Virus record (IMG/VR): IMGVR_UViG_3300002835_000017
Source: a virus
Reading direction: 5' to 3' (one strand)
Length of the DNA: 64,000 nucleotides
Part shown: piece by piece, positions 512-24,616 of the stretch
Numbering within the stretch: the stretch's first letter is position 1
Layout: each line of letters opens with the position of its first letter
The notes under the pieces: generated by a model
The model's database searches: none
Told to the model about the DNA's origin: nothing
What the model saw: only the letters and a program-made list of their open reading frames with translations
Program-made: the position numbers and the translations under genes

Positions 512-1258
512 TTAAATTTCAAAATTTTCTTTAATATATTTGTATAGATTTTTTGCGTATGTTTCGTTTTCAATGAAAGATGCATGTCTATGTTCATCTG
601 GTAAATTTGGATACTCTCCATCAAATCTGTTTTCATCGGTGTATTCGGTTCCAACAAATGTTCCATTCCAAATAAATGGTATTTCTTTTTCTTTCAAAAA
701 ATTTGTTATCAGTAAATGATTTTTATACCAATTTATAAAATCTTCACTTTTATTAGATAACGATATCAAATTTGCCCAAGCCATTCTTCCCTCCGTTTCT
801 TCATCGAAATATCCCCAAGGATTTGGATGGTATGGTTCTACTTCACCATTTTCCTTATAGTATTCTCTTCTATGTGGGTATGTATACATTATTAATACGA
901 TTGATGGTTTTAACTCATCTACCCAAGTTATAATACTTCTGGCAATATAATCATTACTTCTACCACTTATACCTAAATTTAAATCAACACCATTTGGTAT
1001 CATTCTAGATAAGTAATGTGACCAAGTTTGTCTATCATGCACACCTATCCCTTCAGTATGAGAGCACCCAACCGACATTATTTTTAATCCTTTCTTTTTA
1101 GGAGAATCACCTCTAAATCCTAACTCATTAAATGTGTAATAACAAGTTCCAGTATCGGACCCATTTCCTAATATTTCTTTATTTTTTCTTTCTTCTAATA
1201 ACCATTTGTAACTTGCTATATCAAATGTTTTAGGATTCCAAAAATTTAAACTTTTCAT
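512..1258 (-). CDS. SGNH/GDSL-like hydrolase-fold protein
   Basis: VGCSHTEG (block I-like), NLGISGRSN (block II-like), C-terminal His in DEHRHAS. Confidence 0.55.
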   Translation of the reverse strand: MKSLNFWNPKTFDIASYKWLLEERKNKEILGNGSDTGTCYYTFNELGFRGDSPKKKGLKIMSVGCSHTEGIGVHDRQTWSHYLSRMIPNGVDLNLGISGRSNDYIARSIITWVDELKPSIVLIMYTYPHRREYYKENGEVEPYHPNPWGYFDEETEGRMAWANLISLSNKSEDFINWYKNHLLITNFLKEKEIPFIWNGTFVGTEYTDENRFDGEYPNLPDEHRHASFIENETYAKNLYKYIKENFEI

Positions 1259-1260
1259 AA

Positions 1261-3822
1261 TTAAAATGTAAAAAACTTTTTTGCAGTTTGTGTTTCAGTT
1301 GATGCTTTTTCCCATTTCAATGCTTTGTAAAAATCATCTAACTTATTTTCCAACTCTGCTTTGAAAATCATATCTCTATCTACATATTGCTCTACAAAGT
1401 CCATAATTTCTTTTGGGTCATTGTAATCTTTAAATGCAACTGTATCTAATCCTAATGGGTTTTGTCTTAAATACACCCACTTAACCTTATCACCATCTCT
1501 AATTGGTTCATGCTTAAACGGGCAATCAAAGAACTTTAATAATCGGTTGTACGATATACCCGCTTTAACGTGTGCCGGAGTTCCTTTCTCAAAATTTGCA
1601 ATAGCTAACCCACTATCTTTTCTCCATTTTCCGTTATCGTATTTACTCAATTCCTTAATGGCTCCACCTTTTGCTATTTTGTTTACAGGTAGATTAACCA
1701 TACTAGCTTTAAATGCTAATAACTTTGTATCAACATACTCATTATCTTTACCCATAAGAATATCTTTCAACATACCTGACATATATTCCTGAAACGCTTT
1801 TGGGAAAGATGAACGAACTACATCCAAACCTTTTACATCCAACTTATCACATTTGATACCGTTCTTCAATACCATCCATTGTGCGTATCGTTTCTTTGCT
1901 ACCCAAAATCCTGCTTTGGAGATATATTCCTTTTTGATTTCAAATCTGTGTTTATCTTTTGGAATACAAAAGAATCTTTCAGCTAATAAATCATAAAATG
2001 AATTTAAGAATGTTTGTGTTTCTTCAGCAATTATGTTAACTTCACTTGCCATTCGTTGCTCATCAAACTCTTTGTATTCTGGATATCTATGTTTTACCAA
2101 TGGCTCTGCCATCATATAAATTGAATCCGTATCGATGTATACATTGTAATCTACTTTTGTACCTAATTCCTTATTATACTTGATATTTGCCATTTCAGCA
2201 GTTTTCTTAATCACAGTCTGACCTGTTATTGTAACTGCTTCTGCATTATCAATATCATAGAAACGAAATGCGGGTAATCCTAACACCCCATACATTGAGT
2301 TTAAAAGAATCTTTTGTACTAACTGGCGTTTGGCATAGAATTCATATTTTTCAGTATCACCTGCTTCACCATATTGTTTTTCTAATTTACGGAATTCAAC
2401 CCTTTGTTTGAACCATGTATCCAAAATATCTGCAATCAATCCTGGTTTATCTTGATTATATAATACACCATTTGCTGCTACCCCTAAATTACTATCTTTA
2501 ATAACTTCGGTTAATTCTTGTTTCGTATATTCGTATTTATCTCCTCCAGAACCTACAATTGTATAACTAGCATCTCCACCTCTAACCCAATGTTCTGCAT
2601 CCCAATTCTGAATTTTACCAATCTTCGTTTCAGGTGAGATATTCAGAGTCATAATGATTGATGGATATAGTGATGTTAAATCCAAATCATAAATCCAATC
2701 ATACTTACCAACAATCGGTTCTTTTACATAAGCTCCGATGAACTTCTCTTCGTTATTATCACGAAGTGCTTGCATCTTCTCTTTCCTATCTTTTGGTTTA
2801 TTTGGTGCTACTAACCCTTTGGTTTTTAGATATGCTAAACATGCTCCTTCCAAATATTTTGATGAGAACATATAATCTTCATACGGAACGAATCCTGCGT
2901 GGCAAATCGCTCTACATAACTCAATGAATTGAAGTTTCTCATCCATTGATACAACCAAGTCCACATCGACAATGTTATATTCAATAAACTTCTCCAAATC
3001 GTTTTCGAATAAATCATCCAAACTTCCCTCATACTCAACCTTACCTCTACCTAATTCTTTAGTAGCAATGTGATTTAGAGTATAGGATGATTCTAACCCA
3101 TAGTTATAGTTCTTATATAGATTAATATAATCCAAAATAGATACACCAGCAAAACTCCACTTCTGTCTGTAAGGTGAATAAAAGGTTTGTCCAATTGGAG
3201 ATAATCGTTTTGCATGTCCTTCCCCACATACGTTCTTAATACGATTGTAAAGATATGGAATATCAAAGAAATCAATGTTCCAACCTGTTAGGATTGTTGG
3301 ATTAACTTCTTCATAATAATTAAGAAATGCAATTAGAAGATTTTTCTCATTATCAAAAATATGCAGTTTTACATCTCTACCATCTTTACTGAATTGTTTT
3401 GCATTGTTTTTAACTTTTCTTGCTTTATCTAATACAAATACATCGTACAATTTAGTAACACCATCATGTGATGCTATTGCAGTAATTTCATTTTGTGCAA
3501 ATTGAGTGTTAGGTAATCCACTAACCATTTCAACTTCTATATCAAAAGTCATTGTTCTGTTTCCTTTTGATGGAATATCGGAATCGTATATATCAACTAA
3601 TACTCTAGTGGTTTCGGGTACATCTGATTCAAATAAATCTTCAGCTTCATCCTTTTCCCACTTTGAAATACGAGTCAATCTATCACCATGCATTGATGTA
3701 TGTTGTCCATACGGGTCTTTCTTATACGCATACTTTCGATATGGAAATGTTTGATAACCATTTTTATCATCCCATAGGTGGATAAGATTTTGTGCTCTTT
3801 CGTAAAATATGTTTTGATACAT
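1261..3822 (-). CDS. Family B DNA polymerase (T4 gp43-like)
   Basis: Exonuclease FDIE and GWNIDFFD; polymerase DLTSLYPSII, KILLNSMYG, YIDTDS, KKRY. Confidence 0.97.
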   Translation of the reverse strand: MYQNIFYERAQNLIHLWDDKNGYQTFPYRKYAYKKDPYGQHTSMHGDRLTRISKWEKDEAEDLFESDVPETTRVLVDIYDSDIPSKGNRTMTFDIEVEMVSGLPNTQFAQNEITAIASHDGVTKLYDVFVLDKARKVKNNAKQFSKDGRDVKLHIFDNEKNLLIAFLNYYEEVNPTILTGWNIDFFDIPYLYNRIKNVCGEGHAKRLSPIGQTFYSPYRQKWSFAGVSILDYINLYKNYNYGLESSYTLNHIATKELGRGKVEYEGSLDDLFENDLEKFIEYNIVDVDLVVSMDEKLQFIELCRAICHAGFVPYEDYMFSSKYLEGACLAYLKTKGLVAPNKPKDRKEKMQALRDNNEEKFIGAYVKEPIVGKYDWIYDLDLTSLYPSIIMTLNISPETKIGKIQNWDAEHWVRGGDASYTIVGSGGDKYEYTKQELTEVIKDSNLGVAANGVLYNQDKPGLIADILDTWFKQRVEFRKLEKQYGEAGDTEKYEFYAKRQLVQKILLNSMYGVLGLPAFRFYDIDNAEAVTITGQTVIKKTAEMANIKYNKELGTKVDYNVYIDTDSIYMMAEPLVKHRYPEYKEFDEQRMASEVNIIAEETQTFLNSFYDLLAERFFCIPKDKHRFEIKKEYISKAGFWVAKKRYAQWMVLKNGIKCDKLDVKGLDVVRSSFPKAFQEYMSGMLKDILMGKDNEYVDTKLLAFKASMVNLPVNKIAKGGAIKELSKYDNGKWRKDSGLAIANFEKGTPAHVKAGISYNRLLKFFDCPFKHEPIRDGDKVKWVYLRQNPLGLDTVAFKDYNDPKEIMDFVEQYVDRDMIFKAELENKLDDFYKALKWEKASTETQTAKKFFTF

Positions 3823-3831
3823 TTGTTATTT

Positions 3832-5403
3832 TTAAGGTTTGTAGAAAATAAAGATTGGTTCATATTTGTAAACCATATCACCTATCTTCATACTATTTTT
3901 CACTCCACTCAAATCAACACCCGTCATAGGACTCATTGTCATTTTAATCTTACCCTTATATTCACACCCCAACTCTGTAAGAATATCAATTGAATCCTGC
4001 TCCAATGGGAAAAACTTATCCTTACCCACTTTAATATCCGCAATGTTCCAAAGAATGTATCTATCATTACGAAGATATTCAAATGCAGTTGTTAGTGTAG
4101 GTCTTAAAAATCCATCTCTCCAACTATCGTAGTTATTGAATTTCTTAAATGATTGTGTTTCATCATTTGAGTATCTTTCTCTATCAAAGTATGGTGGAGA
4201 TGTAAATGCAAAATCTAACTTACCCTTATACTTTTGAAAATTACCATCTAAATGAATTATCTCCGAACCTGTTGTAAAGATTTCATAAGTATTTTGATGT
4301 CCCCAAAAAGGATTACTTGCACCTGGAATCTTATTGTTAAAGAATTCTGCTAAATACTCATATCTCGTCTTACCAATTTCAGGTATTTGATTTTCAGTAT
4401 TAGGGTCATTACCAATGTAGTGAATGTTTCTATCATCTACTGATAATGCTCCTAAAATTCTACCACCCCAACCTGCCGATGGGTCATAAATGTTTATAAC
4501 CTTTTGGTCTTTGATATGTTCTGTAAATCTCTGATACAGATACTTTGCAGTTAATGGTGGAAAGTTTACTACTGCTTGCGTTCCCATACCAATACGGAAT
4601 GCCGCAGTTGCTTCTGGGAAGATAGTTTGACCAAACGGATATGTTTTAATCTGAATTGGTTGTTTTGGAATATCAATTAGATTATCAATATTCTCACCCC
4701 AATCCGCAGTTTTAAGTGATGAAATATTCTCATACTTCAATATCCCTGCTTTATACAAATCCTTTACCTCTTGTGCAGTAATTGGTGGAGATGGTACTTT
4801 ACTATCTGCCTGTGATAAACAAAACCCATGTCCTTGTTGTGTATCTCCTGCTGCCCATTTCTCAATCCATTCTTTACCAGTTTGAATATGTGAGTTGTGG
4901 AAATCTGGATGATTTAAGTGTAGAGTTTTAGAAAAACGATACATACCATCCTGACGAGTTAAACGATTCATCTGTTTAATGAAATCAGGTAAGTACGCAT
5001 CATCTACAAAAATATCGTAGATTGATGGTTTTGGTTTATCGTATGCAGAACCACCGATACCTGTTTTGTACATTGCAGGAAAGAATTGATTTACACAAGT
5101 GGCAAATTTGTTAAAGTTAAAAATAACTTCATCACCATCTTTGTCTACCTTACTAAACTCATTAACTTTGTATGTTTGTAGTTTAGAAAAGTTTTCAATA
5201 ATTTCAGCTTCGTCCATACCAATCCTCGGTGGTGCATCCGTTCTGTTCCACTGCTCAATGGCAGTTTTACGAAAGAAATCAACCCACTTACCAAACTCCG
5301 GAAAAGGCATCTTTAATACATCTTCGTATTTAAGATTTATTTCTGGAGAGTAAATCCAATCGTTTCTTTCGTAAAAATACTTCTTTTTATAATTGAATGC
5401 CAT
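3832..5403 (-). CDS. SAM-dependent amino-DNA methyltransferase-like protein (paralog 1)
   Basis: Motif I YDPSAGWGGR, motif IV FTSPPYF, long N-terminal extension. Confidence 0.8.
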   Translation of the reverse strand: MAFNYKKKYFYERNDWIYSPEINLKYEDVLKMPFPEFGKWVDFFRKTAIEQWNRTDAPPRIGMDEAEIIENFSKLQTYKVNEFSKVDKDGDEVIFNFNKFATCVNQFFPAMYKTGIGGSAYDKPKPSIYDIFVDDAYLPDFIKQMNRLTRQDGMYRFSKTLHLNHPDFHNSHIQTGKEWIEKWAAGDTQQGHGFCLSQADSKVPSPPITAQEVKDLYKAGILKYENISSLKTADWGENIDNLIDIPKQPIQIKTYPFGQTIFPEATAAFRIGMGTQAVVNFPPLTAKYLYQRFTEHIKDQKVINIYDPSAGWGGRILGALSVDDRNIHYIGNDPNTENQIPEIGKTRYEYLAEFFNNKIPGASNPFWGHQNTYEIFTTGSEIIHLDGNFQKYKGKLDFAFTSPPYFDRERYSNDETQSFKKFNNYDSWRDGFLRPTLTTAFEYLRNDRYILWNIADIKVGKDKFFPLEQDSIDILTELGCEYKGKIKMTMSPMTGVDLSGVKNSMKIGDMVYKYEPIFIFYKP

Positions 5404-5404
5404 T

Positions 5405-6124
5405 CTATGCGGTTAATTGTACTTCTACCAAGTAATAGTTTGCAGTGAAATCATCAATTTTGAATTCAACATGCGCTAAACCTGAAGTAGATATTTTTAA
5501 TACTACCGAATTGGCTTCTTTGTTTGCAGAGAAAATCTCTTTGAGATACTTTGCAGAGAATGAAATAGGTTTAACTTCTTCTGTATAATCTTTGTTAACA
5601 GAAAATTCAATCAAAGTTGAATTTACATTCGAATAACCTAATACAAGTTTCAATTCACTATTCTTTGTAAGAACGGTAAATGTATCTACATCAGATAATG
5701 CGTTTTTAGCTTTAATAAATTTGTCAATAAATTTACCATCAAATGCAATTTCAATATCAAATTCTGGTAGAGATTTCAAATCCGGAACTGATGGGATAAC
5801 TGCCAAATCCGCTAATTGGAATTGAGCCTTTGTATCATCACTTTTGATAAATAAACTTACAGCCTTTCCTTCAACTTGCTGAACATCCAATTCAACATCG
5901 TCACCTACAACTGATAACAATTTTGTTAATTGTGATGTTGTGTAAATACCTAAATTAGGTGTTGTTTGAGTAAAATTATCTAATTGAATTTCACCTAATA
6001 CTGTCTTATCATCGGAGATAAAACGAGTAACCAATTTGCCATCTGCTGCTTTCCATGCTACAGATTCTACTAATCCTGCCAAATTATACTTTTGGATAAA
6101 TCTTGTAATTCTTGTTTTGTTCAT
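5405..6124 (-). CDS. Sliding clamp (gp45/PCNA-like)
   Basis: 239 aa, beta-rich, PCNA-like FSAKYL and C-terminal YYL; lies beside polB and the clamp loader. Confidence 0.75.
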   Translation of the reverse strand: MNKTRITRFIQKYNLAGLVESVAWKAADGKLVTRFISDDKTVLGEIQLDNFTQTTPNLGIYTTSQLTKLLSVVGDDVELDVQQVEGKAVSLFIKSDDTKAQFQLADLAVIPSVPDLKSLPEFDIEIAFDGKFIDKFIKAKNALSDVDTFTVLTKNSELKLVLGYSNVNSTLIEFSVNKDYTEEVKPISFSAKYLKEIFSANKEANSVVLKISTSGLAHVEFKIDDFTANYYLVEVQLTA

Positions 6125-6146
6125 GTTTTTTAAATTTAATTGTTTA

Positions 6147-6177
6147 CGAATATACTATATTTTTTTTATATTTACAA
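6147..6177 (-). promoter_or_regulatory. Bacteroidota sigmaA-type promoter (TTG-N20-TATATTCG)
   Basis: Matches -33/-7 consensus TTG...TAnnTTTG with 20-nt spacer, upstream of clamp gene. Confidence 0.65.
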
Positions 6178-6181
6178 GTCA

Positions 6182-7411
6182 CTATGGTTTTTTCCATATC
6201 CATACTGGCTCACAAAATGTTTTATTTTTTGCTTCTTCCGCTTTTAATAGAGCTTCTTCTGTGTATCTTTCCTCATCCCCTTCTATAATTGCACCTGCTC
6301 CTGCTGAACCTGGTCTCTTTGCCATTTCCATCCCCAAGCAACCCTCATATTCTCCACCTAACGAAGCAATATAATCGTTCATAGGATTTGTTATCTCTTG
6401 ATACCCCTTACCATCTCCTTTGGAAGATGCATATACATCGGCAATATTGATTGCTAAATACCCACCCTTTCTAATAGTCGGCCAAACCTTTTCGATTGTT
6501 TTGTGTAAGAATAATTTATTCCATGCATCAATGTTGTTGTATCGAACCCAACTTTGGGTATCGTCATAAGAATATCGTTCAACATTGAAATATGGGGGTG
6601 AGCTGAAAACAATGTCAAAATAATTGGTGTACTCACTATAATCCATGTCTTCAGCTGGTGAGCAATGGAATGTAGTTTTTTTATCGGTTTCAAACCATCC
6701 GTTGTGTTTTTTGTAGAATTCTGATTGTTGTTCATAAATTGGGTGATTTTCTTTTCTCGGGTCAATGCCGACATAATGTTCTCCTTTTTCAGATGCCATA
6801 AATCCACACAGCCTATCTCCCCACCCTGCCGAAATGTCTAATACATTTTTTGCATCAACCATATCATAAAGTGCTTTGGCAACATTAGGTTTGAATTGGG
6901 AGCAAATGTATTTTCTCAAACCTAAACAAACTCTTAATTCACTTCTACCTACTTCATCAAATTTAAGAGTATATAATCCCCCCATTAGACTCGTCATAAA
7001 CTCCTTCGAATTCCACGTTCTATGAGGACCTGGCGAAACCGTCCCGTCTACACTCCATCTATTAGATTGTTGAAAGAAATTGGATGCAGAATTGCCAGTA
7101 TTCAACCTTCTTACAAATTGTTGTTTACCTCTGAAAGTTAAAGGATAATTGCTCTCCGATGCTTTACGAGGAAACCACTCACCTTCGGTTAGGAGTTCGT
7201 GATAGCGAGTTCCTTTGAGAGCAAGGTATTCTTTTCTAGCTTCTGTTTCTGTTATTTCTGCGTATGGTAGTTCGTATTCCATACACACTTCTGCAAGAGA
7301 GTCTTTTACATCATCTCTATCAAACGTGGTTTTAATATAACTCCACTCTTCACTATTGATGTGAAGATATGGAGTCATACCTTTGAACTTGTCAAAGTGC
7401 TCTAAATACAT
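6182..7411 (-). CDS. SAM-dependent amino-DNA methyltransferase-like protein (paralog 2)
   Basis: LDISAGWGDR, FSSPPYF; shares F.P..AK.LY and ERYS.D.TQS with 3832-5403. Confidence 0.8.
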   Translation of the reverse strand: MYLEHFDKFKGMTPYLHINSEEWSYIKTTFDRDDVKDSLAEVCMEYELPYAEITETEARKEYLALKGTRYHELLTEGEWFPRKASESNYPLTFRGKQQFVRRLNTGNSASNFFQQSNRWSVDGTVSPGPHRTWNSKEFMTSLMGGLYTLKFDEVGRSELRVCLGLRKYICSQFKPNVAKALYDMVDAKNVLDISAGWGDRLCGFMASEKGEHYVGIDPRKENHPIYEQQSEFYKKHNGWFETDKKTTFHCSPAEDMDYSEYTNYFDIVFSSPPYFNVERYSYDDTQSWVRYNNIDAWNKLFLHKTIEKVWPTIRKGGYLAINIADVYASSKGDGKGYQEITNPMNDYIASLGGEYEGCLGMEMAKRPGSAGAGAIIEGDEERYTEEALLKAEEAKNKTFCEPVWIWKKP

Positions 7412-7426
7412 AACTTATTGTTTATT

Positions 7427-7939
7427 TTAACTACCAAAAAATACCTGAACTTCTGTTTTATCTCCGTTCTGAATAACATCAAAACTTTCTACAAACAAAT
7501 GTTCCGTATCTCCAATCTTTTTATATAAATTATCAGCTGCTGCCCATAACTCTAACCAAGTTAATTCTTTATTTTCCAATTGGATTTGAGTAGCATCTAA
7601 TCCGTTTGTCATATAATCGGCAGTAATACCAGATAGTTCATTTATATTATCAACTTCATATACAGAAAATACTGTTTCAAAACCATTCAGTTCTGCTAAA
7701 TCAGCAAACTCTTCTATTTTAGATGTTATAGCATCACCATCTTCAATTCTTTCATCTCTCATATAATCTTCTACTAATTTTCGTTCAACATTTGGGGTAT
7801 TATCTATCAGCATCTTTGCCATCTTCATAATATCATCATACGGAACTCCTTCTTCTGTCATATCCATAATCATTTTACCAATAATAGGATTTGAAATTTC
7901 ATCTCTCATCCATTTTTCTACTTCTTCTTTACTTTTCAT
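7427..7939 (-). CDS. Hypothetical acidic protein
   Basis: 170 aa ORF, packed in operon. Confidence 0.6.
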   Translation of the reverse strand: MKSKEEVEKWMRDEISNPIIGKMIMDMTEEGVPYDDIMKMAKMLIDNTPNVERKLVEDYMRDERIEDGDAITSKIEEFADLAELNGFETVFSVYEVDNINELSGITADYMTNGLDATQIQLENKELTWLELWAAADNLYKKIGDTEHLFVESFDVIQNGDKTEVQVFFGS

Positions 7940-7949
7940 AACTTTTATT

Positions 7950-9065
7950 TTACATCTTTTTAAGCAAAAATAACAACTCTTTTACTTTATTATTTCTTTT
8001 ATTACTTTTTATATTACCACCTCTAAATACAACATAATCTTTTTCAAACATTTTTACTTTACCGTGTTTATTCATAATTTCATAAAAATCTTCTTCTGTC
8101 AAAAATCCTTCATTATTATATGAAACTAATATAAATTTGGCATTTGTATTTTCAATTAATTTAGAAAATGTATCTTTAATTGTCGATTTCTTATTCCAAT
8201 CTGATTTGTTCCAATCATTTGGAATTCCTGATACTTTTGATAATATTTCTGGATTTATATTATTACTCAATATTGAGTTTAACATAAAATAGTTAGAACT
8301 ATATGGATGCTGATTATACGGTGGGTCAAAATATGCCAAATCCAATTCGGGTATATTTTTAACAATTTCGGCAGTATCACCTTTATAAATACTATAATCA
8401 CATTCATAATTAGAAAAAATTGGATATGGTAAAATTATTTCATCTGTAATTCTATTCATAGCATCACTATTAGTTCCACCAAACTTACCAATTTGAGTTG
8501 TTTTATCTTTATAAAAGCCTTTAAAAACTCCACTTGTATTATTATTTACAGATGCTTTATACAAAAGTGGTGCTAAATATAAATGTTTATTATTCATATT
8601 ATCAATATTATAGCGTATTGAATCTATAATATTTGCATTTTGGTTTGTATAAAAACATCTATCATCTTTTTGAATATTAGAATCATCTTTTGGTGAATAG
8701 TATTCACGAATAATTCCATTTTTTACATTATTTTGTCGTATACTATTTAAATAATCTATACCTCCCTTAATTTCAATTTGATTTAATTCTGATATGTTTG
8801 AAAGATAACATTTATTTATTGTTTCAACATAATCTTCTAAATCATTTGTATATAATTTACTGGAATGTTGTTTGAAAAATCTGGATACTACACCACTACC
8901 CGCAAACCCATCTAATATTGATAATTTATTTTTATTTAATTCGGATTTAACCTCATTCAATGGTTGCTCTATAAATGATAATAATTTTCGTTTATTACCA
9001 ATATATGTAATTAGTTGAGATGAAAGATATAGTGGATTTTCTACATCTATAAATTTTTGTATCAT
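7950..9065 (-). CDS. D12-class N6-adenine DNA methyltransferase
   Basis: YIGNKRKL, DGFAGSG (motif I), YFDPPY (motif IV). Confidence 0.9.
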   Translation of the reverse strand: MIQKFIDVENPLYLSSQLITYIGNKRKLLSFIEQPLNEVKSELNKNKLSILDGFAGSGVVSRFFKQHSSKLYTNDLEDYVETINKCYLSNISELNQIEIKGGIDYLNSIRQNNVKNGIIREYYSPKDDSNIQKDDRCFYTNQNANIIDSIRYNIDNMNNKHLYLAPLLYKASVNNNTSGVFKGFYKDKTTQIGKFGGTNSDAMNRITDEIILPYPIFSNYECDYSIYKGDTAEIVKNIPELDLAYFDPPYNQHPYSSNYFMLNSILSNNINPEILSKVSGIPNDWNKSDWNKKSTIKDTFSKLIENTNAKFILVSYNNEGFLTEEDFYEIMNKHGKVKMFEKDYVVFRGGNIKSNKRNNKVKELLFLLKKM

Positions 9066-9076
9066 TATATAATTTA

Positions 9077-9796
9077 TTATAAATATTTAGCAATATAGTA
9101 TTCCAATGATTGTTCGGAAGTGGATTTAAAAACTTTTACCATTTCTTCATAAGTCCAATCGGATGAACCATATAATGCTTCATTATATTTGTGTCCTCGC
9201 ATGTAATATGTTCCAGCTCTATTAAATGAATCTTTAAATAAATTAATTGTGTTTTTCTTTAAACCTTTAAAAACCATCACAACACGAGACCCAATTGTTT
9301 CACTCTCATCAAAATCACATCCTTGTAAAAAAGTAACAAACGGTAAAATACGTTCTTGTGAAAATAACAAATCTAAACAATTGTAATTTTTACCCAATCT
9401 TTCAACTGCGTTTCCCAATGCTTGTTTTGATTTACCTTCTGCTAGTCTTTTATCATTTGTTCCTTGTGTTTTTTGTTCTCCAACTAATATAAACCGTTTA
9501 ACACCATTAATTATTACATAAATAAATCCACCATCTGGTGTTAAAAATGTACTATCTTTAACTGATTCCAAATAAATAGAATCTCCTAACCCATAATCGT
9601 TTCTTAATATTAAATATATTTCGTTTATAGATAATTTTTTTTGAAATCCAAATGTGTATTTTGGATATTTCTTTTTTAGAAATTTTAAAGTATCATTAAC
9701 GGATACAATCATTAATTTTTCTTGTATTTTAGAAAATGTGTTCTTTTCTGAATGTTGGTTTTTACGATTTCTAATTGATTCTGATAAGTTTGTCAT
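9077..9796 (-). CDS. EcoRI-family type II restriction endonuclease
   Basis: PDGG...ILVGEQKTQG (PD-ExK) and GNAVERLGKN...PFVTFLQG parallel EcoRI PDGG/AEAKHQG/GNAIERSHKN/PYVLFLEG. Confidence 0.8.
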   Translation of the reverse strand: MTNLSESIRNRKNQHSEKNTFSKIQEKLMIVSVNDTLKFLKKKYPKYTFGFQKKLSINEIYLILRNDYGLGDSIYLESVKDSTFLTPDGGFIYVIINGVKRFILVGEQKTQGTNDKRLAEGKSKQALGNAVERLGKNYNCLDLLFSQERILPFVTFLQGCDFDESETIGSRVVMVFKGLKKNTINLFKDSFNRAGTYYMRGHKYNEALYGSSDWTYEEMVKVFKSTSEQSLEYYIAKYL

Positions 9797-9891
9797 AACT
9801 GATTTGTTTTAAAGTTTAAAGTTGAATAGCTCTCACCGAACTATACAATAAAGATACACAATTCCGCGCAATAATCCTAGCACTTTCGTAA

Positions 9892-10656
9892 TTATTTTCC
9901 AACATTCCAAAATAAAGTATCTTCACTAATTGTTGCCATCTCCTGAATATGTTTCCATGCTTTACTATCGTATGTTAATGATGATGGAAATGGTGGTCTA
10001 TCTTCCATTTTGCAATCTTTGTGGAACGGCATTCTTTTTGGTATTGTGGTTGCTCTACCTTGCTGAACGATTGATGTGTTGTGTCCAATTTGAACTCCAT
10101 ATACTTTTGCATCAGGCCAAGCTAATTGTAAACCTCTACTTAATGTACCAGAACTCATTACACTCCAAACTTCTTTTGGTGTAAATGGTAGCTTTCTTGC
10201 CGTTTCTACGATTGTGTTTAGAATGATTGGGTCATCAAATCCGAATGGAACTAATTTAATCTTATCCCATCCATGTCCTTGTCTATCTTTTGCCTTTCGA
10301 TTTAAGTTAGTTAGGTATCCCATAGGAACTTCGTTGATTTCTGCACCCACCATTTCTGCTTCTAATGTAAGTTCGGTTCTTTTACCTTGTGGAACATACA
10401 CAATTGCTTTCTTTCCTAAATCTCTGCAAGCGTATGCTAATGCAACTTGTCCGTATCCTTGTCTGGGGGATGCGTAAATCCATTGTTCTACCTGTGGATA
10501 CGCCAACATATATGAATATGCGAATCTGCGTTTACTACCGCCAGGTAAAAGGTCATCTCTTACAACCTTTATACCTGCGATAGTTTGAACTACGATAGGT
10601 GGTAAATTCACCTCATAGTTATATCTTTCTAAATGAAAATCTAAATGTTTATACAT
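9892..10656 (-). CDS. PLP-dependent fold-type II enzyme (ACC deaminase/D-cysteine desulfhydrase-like)
   Basis: VRDDLLPGGSKRR PLP-lysine motif, SSGT phosphate loop, TYDSKAW, LFWNVG; ATG at 10656 preferred over the track start. Confidence 0.8.
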   Translation of the reverse strand: MYKHLDFHLERYNYEVNLPPIVVQTIAGIKVVRDDLLPGGSKRRFAYSYMLAYPQVEQWIYASPRQGYGQVALAYACRDLGKKAIVYVPQGKRTELTLEAEMVGAEINEVPMGYLTNLNRKAKDRQGHGWDKIKLVPFGFDDPIILNTIVETARKLPFTPKEVWSVMSSGTLSRGLQLAWPDAKVYGVQIGHNTSIVQQGRATTIPKRMPFHKDCKMEDRPPFPSSLTYDSKAWKHIQEMATISEDTLFWNVGK

Positions 10657-10659
10657 AAC

Positions 10660-10690
10660 CAAATTTACGAAAAAAAATCCAATAAAACAA
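10660..10690 (-). promoter_or_regulatory. Bacteroidota sigmaA-type promoter (TTG-N20-TAAATTTG)
   Basis: Exact TAnnTTTG with TTG 20 nt upstream. Confidence 0.7.
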
Positions 10691-10692
10691 GT

Positions 10693-10959
10693 CTATTGCG
10701 ATATTTGTTCGTTTATTAAATTAACATAAGCAAGTTTGGATTGAACGCCTACAAATCTACCTACTTCTTTACCATTTTTTTCTATGATAACAGTTGGTAC
10801 TGAACGAATTGAGTATTTAGTAGCTTCAGTATATGCTTCATCTACATCATAATCTTCAAATTTTACATTTGAAAATTGAGTTTTAACTTCGTTAATTATT
10901 GGTGCTAATACTTTGCATGGTCCACACCAAGATGCACTAAATTTCTTTACTGTTAACAT
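10693..10959 (-). CDS. trxA: Thioredoxin
   Basis: WCGPC active site, SVPT cis-Pro loop. Confidence 0.95.
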   Translation of the reverse strand: MLTVKKFSASWCGPCKVLAPIINEVKTQFSNVKFEDYDVDEAYTEATKYSIRSVPTVIIEKNGKEVGRFVGVQSKLAYVNLINEQISQ

Positions 10960-19096: not shown

Positions 19097-19453
19097 TTAT
19101 TTTGCCCACTTCCCTCTACTCACTAATTGAGAAATTACGGAGTAAACTGCTAGGTCTTGATAGGTATCTTCGATAGTTTCAGACACTTCATCGGGATGTC
19201 CTAATACTACCAATTGCTTTAATCTGTTGATTTTATCGTTCTTTCTGAACCATAGGCCATTCAATGATAATTTAACATCTTCTTTAGTTTGAAGTGATGT
19301 ACCTACTGAAATATTACCCGGTCCGTAGTTTCTTTGTTTTTTACAAAAAGTAGTATACATTTCATCCAGAATATTTTTAAATTCAAAAGTCATTTCTGGA
19401 TAAGTTTCTTCACAATATTCGACTGCGGATTGTTCTTTTTTGGTATCTAACAT
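19097..19453 (-). CDS. DUF1599/nucleotide-modification-associated domain 1-like protein
   Basis: KQRNYG...R.NDKINRL...EDTYQDLAVY pattern. Confidence 0.65.
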   Translation of the reverse strand: MLDTKKEQSAVEYCEETYPEMTFEFKNILDEMYTTFCKKQRNYGPGNISVGTSLQTKEDVKLSLNGLWFRKNDKINRLKQLVVLGHPDEVSETIEDTYQDLAVYSVISQLVSRGKWAK

Positions 19454-22532: not shown

Positions 22533-23798
22533 TTATCCTAAATGAACCAAATTATTGTAACTGGTTCCTTCATCAATTCGAACGGGAAACCCACCCTTTT
22601 CCATAATGGTCGGTAAAAGTTTTAAAATCCCTTCCCTCTCCATCGGATGTGTATCTATGAGAAACGCATCATAAGTGTATAGAATCAATTTCGATTTCAT
22701 CCCACTCATTTGGTTTAGGATATCACTCATCTTTTTATAGTTCACTTCCGTTTCGAGGGCTTGTAGGAGATAATTAAATACCTTTTGTTCAGTCCCTCCT
22801 TCTATTTTAGTGAAATGAATTTCCCTTCCGTATAGGGGTGTTTTCAGAACTCCGGAGATTACGAACTTTTGGTAAACCTCTTTGATGTATTTATCAACGG
22901 TTTGATAAAATGGTATCTCCCTTGCGAACGAATCCAACCCCCCATAGAGATACTTAAAGGTTAGAGCCTTTGCCGTTTCGTAATCCGTTCCATAAAGATT
23001 GGCAAGGTGTTGGTGAGCAGTTTCTCCTTTTGGAAATTCATACCCTACGATTTTCGCAATCAAACGGATGTGATACGATTCATAATCAAATTGAAGGAGA
23101 GTACCCCCATCAAAACGGCTAACAAAACAATCTCTACTACCATCGGATTTGTTAAGAGCAGAGTAATTTACATTAAGGTGTCTATTGGATGGTCTACCCG
23201 TAGTTGTGTATGGATTGTATTTGGTATACACTTTACCCTCATATATGTGATTGGGAGAGAAGCTAAATCTATCAATAAATTTTTCCTCTTCGACTTTCAC
23301 CCCAGCCCCCTCCATCCTCCCTAACTCTTTTATAGAATCTGAATATATACGATACCAACTCTGTCGATTTTGTATATCAGGGATTGATTTTAAGAGTTCG
23401 TACCACTTCATTAGTGGGATACAATCATTCAACTCATTATAATCGGACCTATACCCCTTAAAAAGAGTTTCTGCCCATTCAGAGAAATTAAATGGTTTAC
23501 CATATTCTTCGAAGTAAACCCATTCATAATCCAACCCGTCTGATTGAATATATCGGTTTCCTAAAACAAGAGTATTTTCGTTACAAAGTTTATGTATTGG
23601 AAAAATTGGTAAGGTTGAAGCATCAACATGATTGAAATTTATTATACCATCATCGGTTTCAGTTCGATAATACACAAATGATAGGTGTGTACCAAATTCG
23701 TGTGCTTTGGGTGAACCCCACACTGGTATCAATAATCTAATGTTTGGATTAGATTGGACAAAAAAATGTAGGGTATCCCTATTTTCTATTAAGTTCAT
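22533..23798 (-). CDS. Divergent, short family A DNA polymerase-like protein
   Basis: TTGRPS, motif A DYESYHIR, motif B AKALTFKYLYGG, NYLLQ, motif C TYDAF. Confidence 0.85.
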   Translation of the reverse strand: MNLIENRDTLHFFVQSNPNIRLLIPVWGSPKAHEFGTHLSFVYYRTETDDGIINFNHVDASTLPIFPIHKLCNENTLVLGNRYIQSDGLDYEWVYFEEYGKPFNFSEWAETLFKGYRSDYNELNDCIPLMKWYELLKSIPDIQNRQSWYRIYSDSIKELGRMEGAGVKVEEEKFIDRFSFSPNHIYEGKVYTKYNPYTTTGRPSNRHLNVNYSALNKSDGSRDCFVSRFDGGTLLQFDYESYHIRLIAKIVGYEFPKGETAHQHLANLYGTDYETAKALTFKYLYGGLDSFAREIPFYQTVDKYIKEVYQKFVISGVLKTPLYGREIHFTKIEGGTEQKVFNYLLQALETEVNYKKMSDILNQMSGMKSKLILYTYDAFLIDTHPMEREGILKLLPTIMEKGGFPVRIDEGTSYNNLVHLG

Positions 23799-23836: not shown

Positions 23837-24616
23837 TTATTCTCCCCAATGGTTTTTACGAAGTTCATATACATCGATTGGCTCACGTTTCATGTGATTA
23901 CCTTGATTAAAGTATGCTCCTTTTTTTAGATATCCACCCAAAAAGTTTCGTCTAAATCTATTTGATTTATTTGGTTCTGAACCATGAATTGTGTGTGAAT
24001 GAAGTAAAACAACTTCTCCTTTACGAAGGTATCCTTCTACTTTTCTAAAATCATGTCCTTCTGGCATAACACACGGCTTACCTCTTTCGTTTCTCCAAAA
24101 CTTTGGATTACTCTTTGCTCTTTCCTCATCAATTTCAATAGGTAAGACTGGTAATCTATGTGAACCTTCATAATTCCATACTGCACCATTTTCTGGATCG
24201 TGATTATCTAACGCTAAAGCAGTATTGATAATTTCGTTATGTTTGCAACCTGTATAGAATCCATTTTGATGTTGGTCTCTACCCAATTGTCCTGGTGGTT
24301 TGAAATATGCCCAAGTTTGTAAGCCTATCAACTCTCCCTCCATCAAAAACTCCATTGCTTCAATCAACTTTGGATGGACAAATAATTTTTCTAATTTTGA
24401 TGATAATTTGTGTGGATATGCAAATGGGTCCCATTCTCCCCATTCTTCACCATTATCTTTAGTAGTCAATGACCGTTCTTGACGTAATTTTTCTAATTCA
24501 TTATTAATTTCATCACATTCTTCCTCTGTAAGGAGTTGTAATACGGTCCAACCTCGATATCTCCAATCGAAGGTCATTTGTTGAATTTCTTCTTGTGTAA
24601 GATGTTTAAATGCCAT
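23837..24616 (-). CDS. PhyH-family 2OG-Fe(II) dioxygenase
   Basis: KPPG..HQN, ALD...PENG...GSH, GEVVL.H..TIHGS.PN.S.R.R. Confidence 0.85.
   Translation of the reverse strand: MAFKHLTQEEIQQMTFDWRYRGWTVLQLLTEEECDEINNELEKLRQERSLTTKDNGEEWGEWDPFAYPHKLSSKLEKLFVHPKLIEAMEFLMEGELIGLQTWAYFKPPGQLGRDQHQNGFYTGCKHNEIINTALALDNHDPENGAVWNYEGSHRLPVLPIEIDEERAKSNPKFWRNERGKPCVMPEGHDFRKVEGYLRKGEVVLLHSHTIHGSEPNKSNRFRRNFLGGYLKKGAYFNQGNHMKREPIDVYELRKNHWGE

What the first reader, a model, noticed from the sequence alone, without database searches (positions are those of the whole stretch)
3832..10656. Candidate DNA-hypermodification set woven into the replisome operon: twin SPPY transferases plus a PLP enzyme
Seen: two divergent paralogous SAM enzymes (D.SAGWG.R, F.SPPYF..ERYS.D.TQS, long N-terminal extensions) flank the sliding clamp next to polB. 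A stand-alone fold-type II PLP enzyme lies just upstream, and a DUF1599-like protein (19097) and a 2OG dioxygenase (23837) sit in the same replication arm. Known: PLP enzymes and 2OG oxygenases tailor hypermodified bases in other phages. Inference: these may build a base modification more complex than a methyl group, for example transfer of a SAM-derived aminocarboxypropyl group followed by PLP-dependent processing, coupled to replication.
Basis: inference. Interest (0 to 1): 0.7.

Follow-up and report, generated by a model that had tools for sequence, protein, structure and literature searches.

The report
Phage SAM-transferase plus PLP DNA-modification module
An abundant uncultured marine T4-like phage carries two methyltransferase-like enzymes beside its DNA polymerase and a vitamin-B6 enzyme related to proven DNA-adduct decarboxylases; the same two enzyme types are fused or adjacent in many other genomes, so together they probably put an undescribed amino-acid-derived decoration on the phage's DNA, though no chemistry has been measured.

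Summary
Two paralogous SPPY SAM-transferase genes (3832-5403 and 6182-7411) flank a PCNA-like clamp gene next to polB, and a short fold-II PLP enzyme lies at 9892-10662.

These are a low-GC EcoRI-like nuclease plus D12 methylase cassette and an acidic 170-aa protein. None of them has a counterpart in the closest relative.

Evidence for a functional link:
- **Homology.** The PLP enzyme is a full-length homologue of Pseudomonas phage M6 gp52, a proven decarboxylase of amino-acid adducts on DNA. The aldimine lysine is conserved.
- **Synteny.** In 68 related phage loci, an SPPY paralogue lies within 3 kb of the PLP gene in 44 and directly adjacent in 17, in three different gene orders.
- **Fusions.** Natural fusion proteins join this transferase family to this PLP family.
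- **Missing known starters.** The amino acid:DNA transferase and the TS-like hydroxymethylase were not found.

The link runs one way. The paralogs are core genes. In close relatives the PLP gene is replaced by AsnB+GNAT or TS-like+AsnB sets, or by nothing.

My best reading (about 0.4) is a SAM-derived amino-acid-type group on a base's exocyclic amine, trimmed by the PLP enzyme. Plain methylation is not excluded. This scan has noted the same module before on other, freshwater phage DNA.

The parts
3832..5403 (-). P1: a 523-aa SPPY SAM-dependent transferase-like protein. Residues 1-265 form a conserved orphan N-terminal domain and residues about 280-523 form the class I methyltransferase-fold domain.
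   Evidence: Motifs DPSAGWGGR and SPPYF. phrog_498 'DNA methyltransferase' E 6e-9. More than 3200 homologues. AF2 model with pLDDT 85.7. Foldseek finds class I methyltransferases, with aTrm11 on top.
5405..6124 (-). PCNA-like sliding clamp. It is a context gene between the paralogs.
   Evidence: PCNA_C E 4.6e-4. NCBIfam DNA polymerase sliding clamp E 8e-8.
6182..7411 (-). P2: a 409-aa SPPY SAM-dependent transferase-like protein, paralogue of P1.
9892..10662 (-). Short fold-II PLP enzyme of the M6 gp52 type (TTG start at 10662; an ATG lies at 10656).
   Evidence: PALP E 1.6e-8 and phrog_7093 E 2.3e-36. 27% identity over the full length to M6 gp52. K44 aligns with gp52 K36, and 18 columns are invariant across the family.
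7427..9796 (-). Inserted island that is not part of the module: an acidic 170-aa protein (7427-7939), a D12 N6-adenine methylase (7950-9065) and an EcoRI-like nuclease (9077-9796).
   Evidence: Pfam hits. In the R-M part (7950-9796) GC is 0.22-0.30, mostly 0.22-0.26, against 0.35-0.39 in the flanks. None of the three genes was found in the 72 PLP loci or in the closest relative L008.
1261..3822 (-). Family B DNA polymerase. It is a context gene and the last gene of the string.
   Evidence: DNA_pol_B E 3.5e-35 and phrog_262 E 1.6e-183.
19097..19453 (-). DUF1599/Nmad1-like protein, a possible associate of the SPPY paralogs.
   Evidence: PF07659 E 3.7e-5, just under the cut-off. Homologues lie next to SPPY paralogs in L115, L116, L123, L125 and L129.

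Best explanation
P1, P2 and the PLP enzyme form a DNA base-hypermodification module in an uncultured marine T4-like myovirus.

Proposed mechanism:
- The two SPPY enzymes bind SAM in a class I Rossmann fold. Their (S)PPY motif addresses an exocyclic amino nitrogen of a base in phage DNA (inferred).
- They most likely transfer SAM's 3-amino-3-carboxypropyl moiety rather than, or in addition to, its methyl group (inferred).
- The PLP enzyme is a homologue of the DNA-adduct decarboxylases M6 gp52 and ViI gp226. It would form a Schiff base with the free alpha-amine of the adduct through K44 and remove CO2, leaving a 3-aminopropyl-type side chain (inferred by homology).

The paralogs are core genes of the lineage. 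The PLP enzyme is one of several interchangeable tailoring options; close relatives carry AsnB-like amidotransferase+GNAT or TS-like+AsnB instead. The R-M cassette and the acidic protein between the PLP gene and P2 are unrelated recent insertions.

What is shown: homology, conserved catalytic residues, synteny and fusions. What is inferred: the target, the group transferred and the product.
For: 1. The PLP enzyme aligns over its full length with M6 gp52. That protein was shown with purified enzyme to decarboxylate C-alpha-glycinyl-thymidine in DNA (PMC8989533). K44 aligns with the aldimine lysine K36, and R35, D37, R46, S171, G172, Y231, D232, K234, W236, W252 and N253 are invariant.
2. Of 68 IMG/VR loci with a PLP homologue (52-90% identity), 17 have an SPPY paralogue within 100 bp and 44 within 3 kb. 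Of the 14 loci with at least 6 kb on both sides, 12 have one within 3 kb. Three gene orders occur: PLP-P2, P1-PLP, and PLP-gap-P2-polB-clamp-P1.
3. Fusion proteins P0125-P0128 join an SPPY domain of this same family to a PLP domain of this family. BLASTP E values against P1/P2 go down to 1.5e-29, the SPPYF..E.Y motif is kept, and the PLP domains are 38-51% identical. P0128 also carries a 2OG Asp/Asn hydroxylase domain.
4. In Erythrobacter phage R6L gp1 the PLP domain lies between motif I and motif IV of a related methyltransferase. In Microcystis phage Mae-JY30 the two are adjacent ORFs.
5. The known installers of amino acids on DNA were not found. AADT (PF18724) and TS-fold (PF00303) are absent from the window's ORFs and from five relatives of 84-137 kb. 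The positive control on M6 gave E 2e-48.
6. The alternative neighbours of P2 in relatives are AsnB-like amidotransferase plus GNAT. Such enzymes act on a carboxylate and an amine. An AsnB homologue, CmoY, does act on a carboxyl handle placed on DNA by a methyltransferase-fold enzyme (PMC12783734).
Against: 2. P1 and P2 occur in many relatives with no tailoring gene nearby (for example polB-clamp-P2, or thioredoxin-P2). That fits self-sufficient methylases.
3. The stretch between RNR/thioredoxin and P2 is a hyperplastic island that also holds dUTPase, a SAM-lyase-like gene, glycosyltransferases and, here, an R-M cassette. Part of the adjacency could therefore reflect genome architecture.
4. Strong avoidance of short palindromes suggests the DNA is not blanket-protected from restriction. 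GATC occurs once against 240 expected, and CATG, CCGG and CTAG have ratios of 0.31-0.39.
5. A SAM-lyase-family gene lies between the PLP gene and P2 in 17 of the PLP-selected loci (gene cluster 13). That is awkward for SAM-dependent chemistry.
6. In this window the PLP gene and P2 are separated by foreign genes.
Confidence: 0.4

Rival explanations
1. P1 and P2 are ordinary orphan DNA amino-methyltransferases (m6A or m4C) that protect phage DNA. The PLP enzyme works in a separate, unknown pathway or on an adduct made by an unrecognised enzyme. The genes sit together because this stretch is the lineage's variable anti-restriction and nucleotide-metabolism island.
For: - Both proteins have canonical motif I and motif IV and a class I fold nearest to amino-methyltransferases.
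- Some close homologues carry precomputed PF01555 hits.
- The paralogs occur without any tailoring gene in many relatives.
- The island's content turns over even between relatives that are 90% identical.
Against: - Four fusion architectures, plus one insertion of the PLP domain inside a methyltransferase domain, are hard to explain without joint function.
- The PLP gene keeps an SPPY neighbour in three different gene orders.
- No other enzyme that could install an amino-acid adduct was found.
Confidence: 0.3
2. The end product is the same but the order is reversed. The PLP enzyme decarboxylates free SAM to decarboxy-SAM, and the SPPY enzymes act like spermidine synthases (also class I fold), transferring an aminopropyl group to a DNA base amine.
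For: - The fusions and the insertion of the PLP domain between motif I and motif IV of a methyltransferase place the PLP site next to the SAM site.
- Spermidine synthases share the class I fold (established knowledge).
Against: - The characterised homologues gp52 and gp226 act on adducts already on DNA.
- The alternative AsnB+GNAT sets in relatives need a carboxylate on the adduct, which decarboxy-SAM transfer would not supply.
- No spermidine synthase appeared among the top fold matches.
Confidence: 0.1
3. The SPPY enzymes, with or without the PLP enzyme, modify RNA (tRNA or rRNA) rather than DNA.
For: - The best structural matches are tRNA and rRNA amino-methyltransferases: TrmN, Trm11, Trm14, METTL5 and RsmC/D.
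- JGI names several homologues 'RsmD'.
Against: - The genes sit inside the replisome gene string.
- Family members are fused to HTH domains, to PF01555 DNA methylase domains and to ParB-type methylases, and they lie next to Mrr-type nuclease-helicase genes.
- The PLP homologue gp52 acts on DNA.
Confidence: 0.07
4. The PLP enzyme is an auxiliary metabolic gene (serine/threonine dehydratase or cysteine-synthase-like) acting on free amino acids, unrelated to nucleic acids.
For: - Weak NCBIfam and PDB sequence hits to serine/threonine dehydratase and diaminopropionate ammonia-lyase.
- PHROG names the family 'threonine dehydratase'.
Against: - Those hits are far below the curated cut-offs (17-20 bits against 274-532).
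- The protein is short (256 aa).
- The 'threonine dehydratase' label of the family traces to M6 gp52, which is in fact a DNA-adduct decarboxylase.
- The family is fused to DNA methyltransferase domains.
Confidence: 0.05

Closest known systems
Thymidine hypermodification pathways of Pseudomonas phage M6 (5-NedU) and Salmonella phage ViI (5-NeOmdU): dUMP hydroxymethylase, 5-HMUDK kinase, amino acid:DNA transferase and the PLP decarboxylases gp52/gp226 (PMC5889632, PMC8989533)
   Same: The PLP enzyme is a full-length homologue of gp52, with the aldimine lysine and a further 17 invariant positions conserved. It is a phage gene that lies among replication and nucleotide-metabolism genes.
   Different: No TS-like hydroxymethylase and no AADT were found in the window or in five large relatives. 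The 5-HMUDK kinase could not be searched for by family model; no kinase family appeared among the window's Pfam hits. The constant partners are SPPY SAM-transferase-like enzymes, to which the PLP domain is fused elsewhere. The target base and the adduct are unknown.
CmoA/CmoX/CmoY pathway of Synechococcus phage S-B43: 5-carboxymethylcytosine and its glycine amide (PMC12783734)
   Same: It is a precedent for a methyltransferase-fold enzyme that puts a non-methyl, carboxyl-bearing group from a SAM derivative on phage DNA, which an AsnB-family ligase then tailors. AsnB-like genes occupy the PLP gene's slot in close relatives.
   Different: CmoX is a C5-cytosine methyltransferase with an SPPC motif and R350. 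P1 and P2 are amino-methyltransferase-type enzymes with SPPY. No CmoA-like gene was seen in the window. A PLP enzyme is not part of that pathway.
Exocyclic-amine methyltransferases of class I fold with a (D/N/S)PP(Y/F) motif: TrmN, Trm11, Trm14, RsmC/D, METTL5, PrmC and the N6/N4 DNA methylases
   Same: They share the fold, motif I followed by motif IV, and the SPPY motif.
   Different: P1 and P2 have conserved orphan N-terminal domains of about 150 and 265 aa with no detectable relatives. They have an extended motif SPPYFxxExYSxDxTQS and a GWG(D/G)R motif I. Neither reaches a curated Pfam threshold. They are core genes within a phage replisome operon.
TYW2, the class I fold aminocarboxypropyl transferase of wybutosine synthesis
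   Different: It scores no better than dozens of ordinary methyltransferases, and there is no specific sequence similarity. It acts on tRNA.

Membership tests
Class I SAM-dependent amino-methyltransferases ((D/N/S)PP(Y/F/W) type) | Rossmann-like class I fold | tested here: met
Class I SAM-dependent amino-methyltransferases ((D/N/S)PP(Y/F/W) type) | Glycine-rich motif I, the acidic residues of motifs II and III, and motif IV SPPY | tested here: met
   DxSAGWGxR and SPPYF are present in both proteins. D192, G196, W197, G198, D217, E254, S271, P272 and P273 are invariant, and Y274 is conserved in at least 90%, across 68 P2-family sequences.
Class I SAM-dependent amino-methyltransferases ((D/N/S)PP(Y/F/W) type) | Transfer of a methyl group, with SAH as by-product | not testable with these tools
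   This needs an enzyme assay. The fold matches do not tell methyl transfer from acp transfer.
Pfam PF01555 N6_N4_Mtase | Score above the curated gathering threshold | tested here: not met
   Neither P1 nor P2 matches PF01555 at E<=0.01. Only some close homologues carry precomputed hits, several of them faint. The motif order is I then IV, the reverse of the family's usual order.
M6 gp52 / ViI gp226 PLP-dependent DNA-adduct decarboxylases | Fold-II PLP domain with an aldimine lysine equivalent to gp52 K36 | tested here: met
   PALP E 1.6e-8 (34.7 bits, cut-off 35) and phrog_7093 E 2.3e-36. K44 aligns with K36 and is invariant in 15 and in 25 sequences.
M6 gp52 / ViI gp226 PLP-dependent DNA-adduct decarboxylases | Genomic partnership with 5-HMUDK, an amino acid:DNA transferase and a dUMP hydroxymethylase | tested here: not met
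   PF18724 and PF00303 were not found in the window's ORFs or in five relatives of 84-137 kb (48-78% complete). The positive control on M6 gave E 2e-48. 5-HMUDK was not searched for by family model.
M6 gp52 / ViI gp226 PLP-dependent DNA-adduct decarboxylases | Decarboxylation of an amino-acid adduct on polymeric DNA | not testable with these tools
   This needs purified protein and a DNA substrate bearing the adduct.
CmoA/CmoX/CmoY 5-carboxymethylcytosine system | C5-cytosine methyltransferase with an SPPC motif and R350, plus a CmoA Cx-SAM synthase | tested here: not met
   P1 and P2 carry SPPY, not SPPC. No CmoA-like hit appeared among the window's ORFs.
Type II restriction-modification system (the inserted cassette 7950-9796) | An adjacent nuclease and methyltransferase pair | tested here: met
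   EcoRI family E 1.1e-14 and D12 methylase E 3.4e-15, with 11 nt between the genes. The recognition site was not determined.

The most novel reading that the evidence does not exclude
An abundant lineage of marine and freshwater T4-like phages, and some other mobile elements, use amino-methyltransferase-fold enzymes to graft SAM's 3-amino-3-carboxypropyl group onto exocyclic amines of DNA bases. This would create an amino-acid handle that interchangeable enzymes then sculpt: a PLP decarboxylase, AsnB amidotransferase with GNAT, a 2OG hydroxylase, and glycosyltransferases. It would be a new class of DNA hypermodification that needs no hydroxymethylated pyrimidine precursor.
Probability: 0.3. 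Interest if true: 0.9.

Novelty: new variant of a known kind. Interest (0 to 1): 0.68.

Why it matters
All well-characterised amino-acid-derived DNA hypermodifications start from 5-hydroxymethyl pyrimidines and a kinase plus transferase pair. Here the only constant transferases are SAM enzymes of the amino-methyltransferase type. They are physically fused, in several architectures, to the family of PLP enzymes known to trim amino-acid adducts on DNA.

If the coupling is real, it points to an undescribed route to bulky, positively charged bases on A, C or G. The phage group is very abundant in oceans and lakes, with thousands of homologue clusters. Consequences would follow for resistance to restriction and CRISPR, for sequencing and basecalling of environmental viral DNA, and for enzymatic DNA labelling tools.

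One simple assay would settle the central question: whether P1 or P2 releases MTA or SAH, and the mass of the modified nucleoside.

Tried and rejected
- **Complex prediction** of P2 with the PLP enzyme gave no verdict (score 0.00, controls not run). It counts neither for nor against binding.
- **No whole genome** is held for the window. Absence of AADT and TS could be tested only in the 64-kb window and in five incomplete relatives.
- **PDB sequence searches** found nothing for P2. Profiles of three conserved neighbour families (A5 with an HD-like motif, A6, A8) gave no match or only E values near 0.4-0.6.
- **ESM Atlas feature search** with P1's N-terminal domain gave only unnamed viral clusters at 0.76-0.80, the level of chance.
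- **Megablast** of the region against cultured phages found no match. The nearest cultured polB is Microcystis phage Mel-JY01 at 48.7%.
- **The window's 248-aa ORF (512-1258)** is not related to the HD-motif family found next to P2 in relatives (hhalign probability 0.1).
- **The acidic protein and the D12 methylase** are not diverged versions of the two genes that occupy the same slot in L008.
- **Promoter and terminator scans** did not exceed shuffled controls, so operon boundaries are not defined.
- **Literature searches** found no paper on a methyltransferase-PLP pairing or on SAM-derived aminopropyl or aminocarboxypropyl DNA bases in phages.
- **PIP-box search.** I looked by eye for a PCNA-interacting motif in P1 and P2 and saw none. 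The shared C-terminal EP(I/V)(F/W)I(F/W) motif is the last strand of the fold.

Full report
**What is there.** The window is part of an uncultured marine T4-like myovirus. It encodes Gp23-type capsid, gp19 tube, sheath, baseplate, prohead protease, gp32, a RecA/UvsX-like protein, a DnaB-like helicase, RNR, thioredoxin and Cpn10.

All genes of interest lie on the minus strand in one tight string. In order of transcription they are:
- RNR large subunit
- thioredoxin (10693-10959)
- PLP enzyme (9892-10662)
- EcoRI-like nuclease (9077-9796)
- D12 N6-adenine methylase (7950-9065)
- acidic 170-aa protein (7427-7939; pI 4.2; weak Ocr hit)
- P2 (6182-7411)
- PCNA-like clamp (5405-6124)
- P1 (3832-5403)
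- polB (1261-3822)

Gaps between genes are 1-95 nt. No terminator-like site was found in the string, and promoter-like matches do not exceed shuffles.

**The observation.** They are paralogs, 31% identical over 245 aa with E 5e-27. The similarity covers the catalytic domain. The N-terminal extensions (about 265 and 150 aa) are each strongly conserved within their own orthologue group and have no recognisable relatives. The PLP enzyme, the DUF1599-like ORF and the PhyH-type oxygenase are all present.

The nuclease-methylase pair has GC of 0.22-0.30, mostly 0.22-0.26, against 0.35-0.39 in the flanks. It is absent from all 72 related PLP loci. The closest relative, L008 (PLP 90%, P2 89%, P1 96% identical), carries two unrelated genes in that slot. 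The pair is therefore a recent insertion into a hypervariable interval. The same scan has already noted it separately.

**What the paralogs are.** Neither protein reaches a curated Pfam or NCBIfam threshold. PHROG places both near 'DNA methyltransferase' families.

The fold therefore says 'SAM-dependent transfer to an amino nitrogen'. It cannot say which sulfonium substituent is transferred.

Both proteins are very widespread and well conserved. Each has more than 3200 hits in the 90% clusters. P2 matches 4596 representative clusters at E<=1e-3. Longer family members carry LAGLIDADG inserts, HTH domains or additional PF01555 methylase domains. This fits conserved DNA-directed enzymes.

**What the PLP enzyme is.** Against cultured phages, the PLP protein hits 56 records over its full length. 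Fifty-two of them are Pseudomonas phages of the M6/YuA group (27% identity), where the gene is annotated 'threonine dehydratase'.

In M6 this gene is gp52. It lies between the amino acid:DNA transferase gp51 (Pfam ADDT, E 1.4e-46) and the radical-SAM isomerase gp53. Lee and colleagues showed with purified protein that gp52 and its ViI homologue gp226 are PLP-dependent decarboxylases. They act on amino-acid adducts of thymidine in polymeric DNA and need a free primary amine (PMC8989533).

In my alignment the window's K44 is the counterpart of gp52 K36, the proposed aldimine lysine. Eighteen columns are invariant across gp52, the window protein, the marine homologues and the fusion proteins. They include the SSG phosphate loop and a C-terminal YD.K.W...WN signature.

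**Linkage between the two families.**

1. *Synteny.* Of 68 IMG/VR loci with a called PLP ORF (52-90% identity), 17 have an SPPY paralogue within 100 bp and 44 within 3 kb. Of the 14 loci with at least 6 kb on both sides, 12 have one within 3 kb, and in the other two P1 lies about 7 kb away. Most remaining loci are truncated contigs. Three different orders occur:
   - PLP then P2, overlapping
   - P1 then PLP, overlapping by 1 nt, in a cassette that ends with P2
   - PLP, a variable gap, then P2, polB, clamp and P1

2. *Fusions.* A search for longer relatives of the PLP enzyme returned five proteins. In four of them the PLP domain (38-51% identical) is preceded by a domain that BLASTP aligns with the catalytic domains of P1 and P2. 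E values are 1.5e-29, 3.5e-28, 6.6e-19 and 1.8e-12, and the SPPYF..E.Y motif is kept. One of these four, P0128, has a 2OG Asp/Asn-hydroxylase domain between the two. The fifth protein, P0129, has that hydroxylase domain plus the PLP domain.

3. *Cultured phages.* The closest cultured homologues of the PLP enzyme (38-42% identity) are Erythrobacter phage R6L gp1 and a Microcystis phage Mae-JY30 ORF. In Mae-JY30 a related methylase (motif I, then FSCPPY) is followed directly by the PLP ORF. In R6L gp1 the motif-I part (Pfam, residues 330-370) and the motif-IV part (FSCPPY at about 657) are separated by the PLP domain (394-622). The PLP domain is thus inserted within the methyltransferase domain.

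4. *Contexts of the fusions.* Both contexts are mobile-element or defence-like. One fusion lies next to a 1203-aa Mrr-nuclease/helicase and a resolvase, the other next to an integrase and CRISPR-associated genes. The 330-aa gene downstream of one fusion is 36.5% identical (E 3e-78) to a gene that follows the PLP gene in marine phage loci. Language-model features place that gene with T4 beta-glucosyltransferase/GT47-like clusters.

**Absence of the known starters.** Pfam scans of the window's ORFs found no amino acid:DNA transferase, TS-fold hydroxymethylase or CmoA-like enzyme. PF18724 and PF00303 searches of five PLP-bearing relatives of 84-137 kb (CheckV 48-78% complete) found nothing. The PF18724 search did find M6 gp51 at E 2e-48 as a positive control. 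These records are incomplete, so absence is likely but not proven.

**The reverse direction.** Loci chosen by P2 alone show that P1 and P2 are core genes, whereas the tailoring set is exchangeable.
- P2 orthologues of 81-82% identity are preceded by AsnB-like amidotransferase plus a GNAT (about ten loci; also L001).
- Others lie next to a TS-like gene plus AsnB plus a 277-aa protein (about nine loci; also L003).
- About six loci have the PLP gene, often with dUTPase and a SAM-lyase-family gene.
- Others have a 246-aa protein with an HD-like HHDLGK motif, which is my reading of the consensus and has no Pfam support.
- Many have nothing, for example polB-clamp-P2.

The PLP gene thus depends on the SPPY genes but not the reverse. 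DUF1599 homologues lie next to SPPY paralogs in several relatives (L115, L116, L123, L125, L129). The PhyH oxygenase has no homologue within the fetched flanks of any related locus.

**Mechanism.** What is shown is limited to these points:
- the fold and motifs of P1 and P2
- homology of the PLP enzyme to proven DNA-adduct decarboxylases, with catalytic residues intact
- one-way synteny
- multiple independent fusions

The rest is inference. A gp52-type enzyme needs an alpha-amino-acid adduct with a free amine. The AsnB+GNAT sets that replace it in relatives need a carboxylate and an amine. The fused Asp/Asn hydroxylase is an amino-acid side-chain hydroxylase. The only transferases always present are SAM enzymes, and SAM can donate an amino-acid moiety (3-amino-3-carboxypropyl), as the class I fold enzyme TYW2 shows.

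An acp group on an exocyclic nitrogen would put the alpha-carbon three atoms from the ring. That is the same spacing as in O-serinyl-thymidine, the substrate of ViI gp226. The S-B43 CmoX/CmoY system (PMC12783734) is a precedent for a methyltransferase-fold enzyme that places a carboxyl handle, which an AsnB homologue then amidates.

I give about 0.4 to this reading, that is, an SPPY-installed SAM-derived amino-acid adduct trimmed by the PLP enzyme. I give about 0.55 to the broader claim that the PLP enzyme and the SPPY enzymes cooperate in a DNA modification more complex than methylation.

**Against.**
- The fold matches are ordinary methylases.
- The paralogs often stand alone.
- The island is hyperplastic.
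- A SAM-lyase-family gene between the PLP gene and P2 in 17 of the PLP-selected loci is hard to reconcile with SAM-dependent chemistry.
- The genome strongly avoids short palindromes. GATC occurs once against 240 expected from a Markov model, and CATG, CCGG and CTAG have ratios of 0.31-0.39. Many relatives have no GATC at all, whether or not they carry the PLP gene. This suggests the DNA is not blanket-protected. Avoidance of GATC could equally reflect modification-dependent nucleases.

**Novelty.** I found no paper that describes a methyltransferase-PLP pairing or SAM-derived aminopropyl or aminocarboxypropyl bases in DNA. This scan has flagged the same gene family combination several times before on other, freshwater phage DNA. 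Those notes are unchecked AI readings. They gave me the lead to the CmoX paper, and I checked that paper and the synteny and fusion claims myself. I rate the finding a new variant of a known kind (phage post-replicative DNA hypermodification). It would be a categorically new chemistry only if the acp hypothesis is confirmed.

Noticed in passing
window 1-64000 (the single GATC is at 24196): GATC is almost absent: 1 observed against 240 expected from a trinucleotide Markov model. It has the lowest ratio of all 256 tetramers. CATG (0.31), CCGG (0.38) and CTAG (0.39) are also depleted. Many relatives have no GATC in 13-21 kb whether or not they carry the PLP gene (L008, L009, L011, L012, L042, L049, L067, L081, L098). 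Others are not strongly depleted (L056: 40 of 63 expected).
   Followed up: partly
window 7950-9796: A complete nuclease-methylase pair (EcoRI-fold nuclease plus D12 N6-adenine methylase) lies inside a lytic-type phage replication operon. Its GC is mostly 0.22-0.26 against 0.35-0.39 in the flanks, and it is absent from all relatives examined. GAATTC is not depleted in the window (23 against 21 expected), and the recognition site is unknown. A GATC-free phage that carried a GATC-cutting nuclease could degrade host DNA without harming itself, but this was not tested.
   Followed up: partly
window 7427-7939: A 170-aa strongly acidic protein (pI 4.2; 39 D+E against 16 K+R) has a weak match to the DNA mimic Ocr (E 0.009). 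It may be an anti-restriction DNA mimic, and it has no homologue in the closest relative.
   Followed up: partly
window 22533-23798: A 421-aa ORF has a weak, partial match to family A DNA polymerase (E 8e-9, profile positions 103-172 only) in a phage that already has a family B polymerase.
   Followed up: no
L055:3399-4046 and homologues (17 loci of gene cluster 13, including L054-L066 and L074): A 215-aa S-AdoMet-lyase-family protein (PF23780, E 3e-13) and a dUTPase lie between the PLP gene and P2. It is paradoxical to find a SAM-destroying enzyme family inside an operon with two or three SAM-dependent transferase-like genes.
   Followed up: no
L005:3822-6242 (Erythrobacter phage vB_EliS_R6L gp1): In this 807-aa protein, annotated 'DNA modification methylase', the PLP domain (394-622) lies between methyltransferase motif I (330-370) and motif IV (FSCPPY at about 657). 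It is a domain-in-domain insertion.
   Followed up: partly
L158:5486-13077 (MAG contig) and L160:1750-6177: The methyltransferase-PLP fusion genes sit in mobile-element or defence contexts, with a 1203-aa Mrr_cat-DEAD helicase, a resolvase, an integrase and CRISPR-associated genes. Each is preceded by a homologous 215-227-aa protein of unknown family (28% identity, E 8e-23). One is followed by a BGT/GT47-like protein that is also found next to the PLP gene in marine phages.
   Followed up: partly
L031:3271-5901 and similar loci (L017, L018, L026): These cassettes run P1, an unknown 514-571-aa protein, PLP, a BGT-like glycosyltransferase, a TAGT-like glycosyltransferase (PF20691, E 1.9e-11), a 246-aa protein with an HD-like motif, then P2. 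They look like larger versions of the module, with two glycosyltransferases.
   Followed up: partly
P0256, P0280, P0337 (P2-family proteins of 631-756 aa): LAGLIDADG homing-endonuclease domains are inserted in or fused to P2-family genes (E down to 1e-38). This is typical of conserved phage replication genes.
   Followed up: no
window 512-1258: A 248-aa ORF downstream of polB has a weak DUF6071 hit (E 0.005). Homologues occur next to polB or P2 in a few relatives (L081, L109, L144). It is not related to the HD-motif family.
   Followed up: partly
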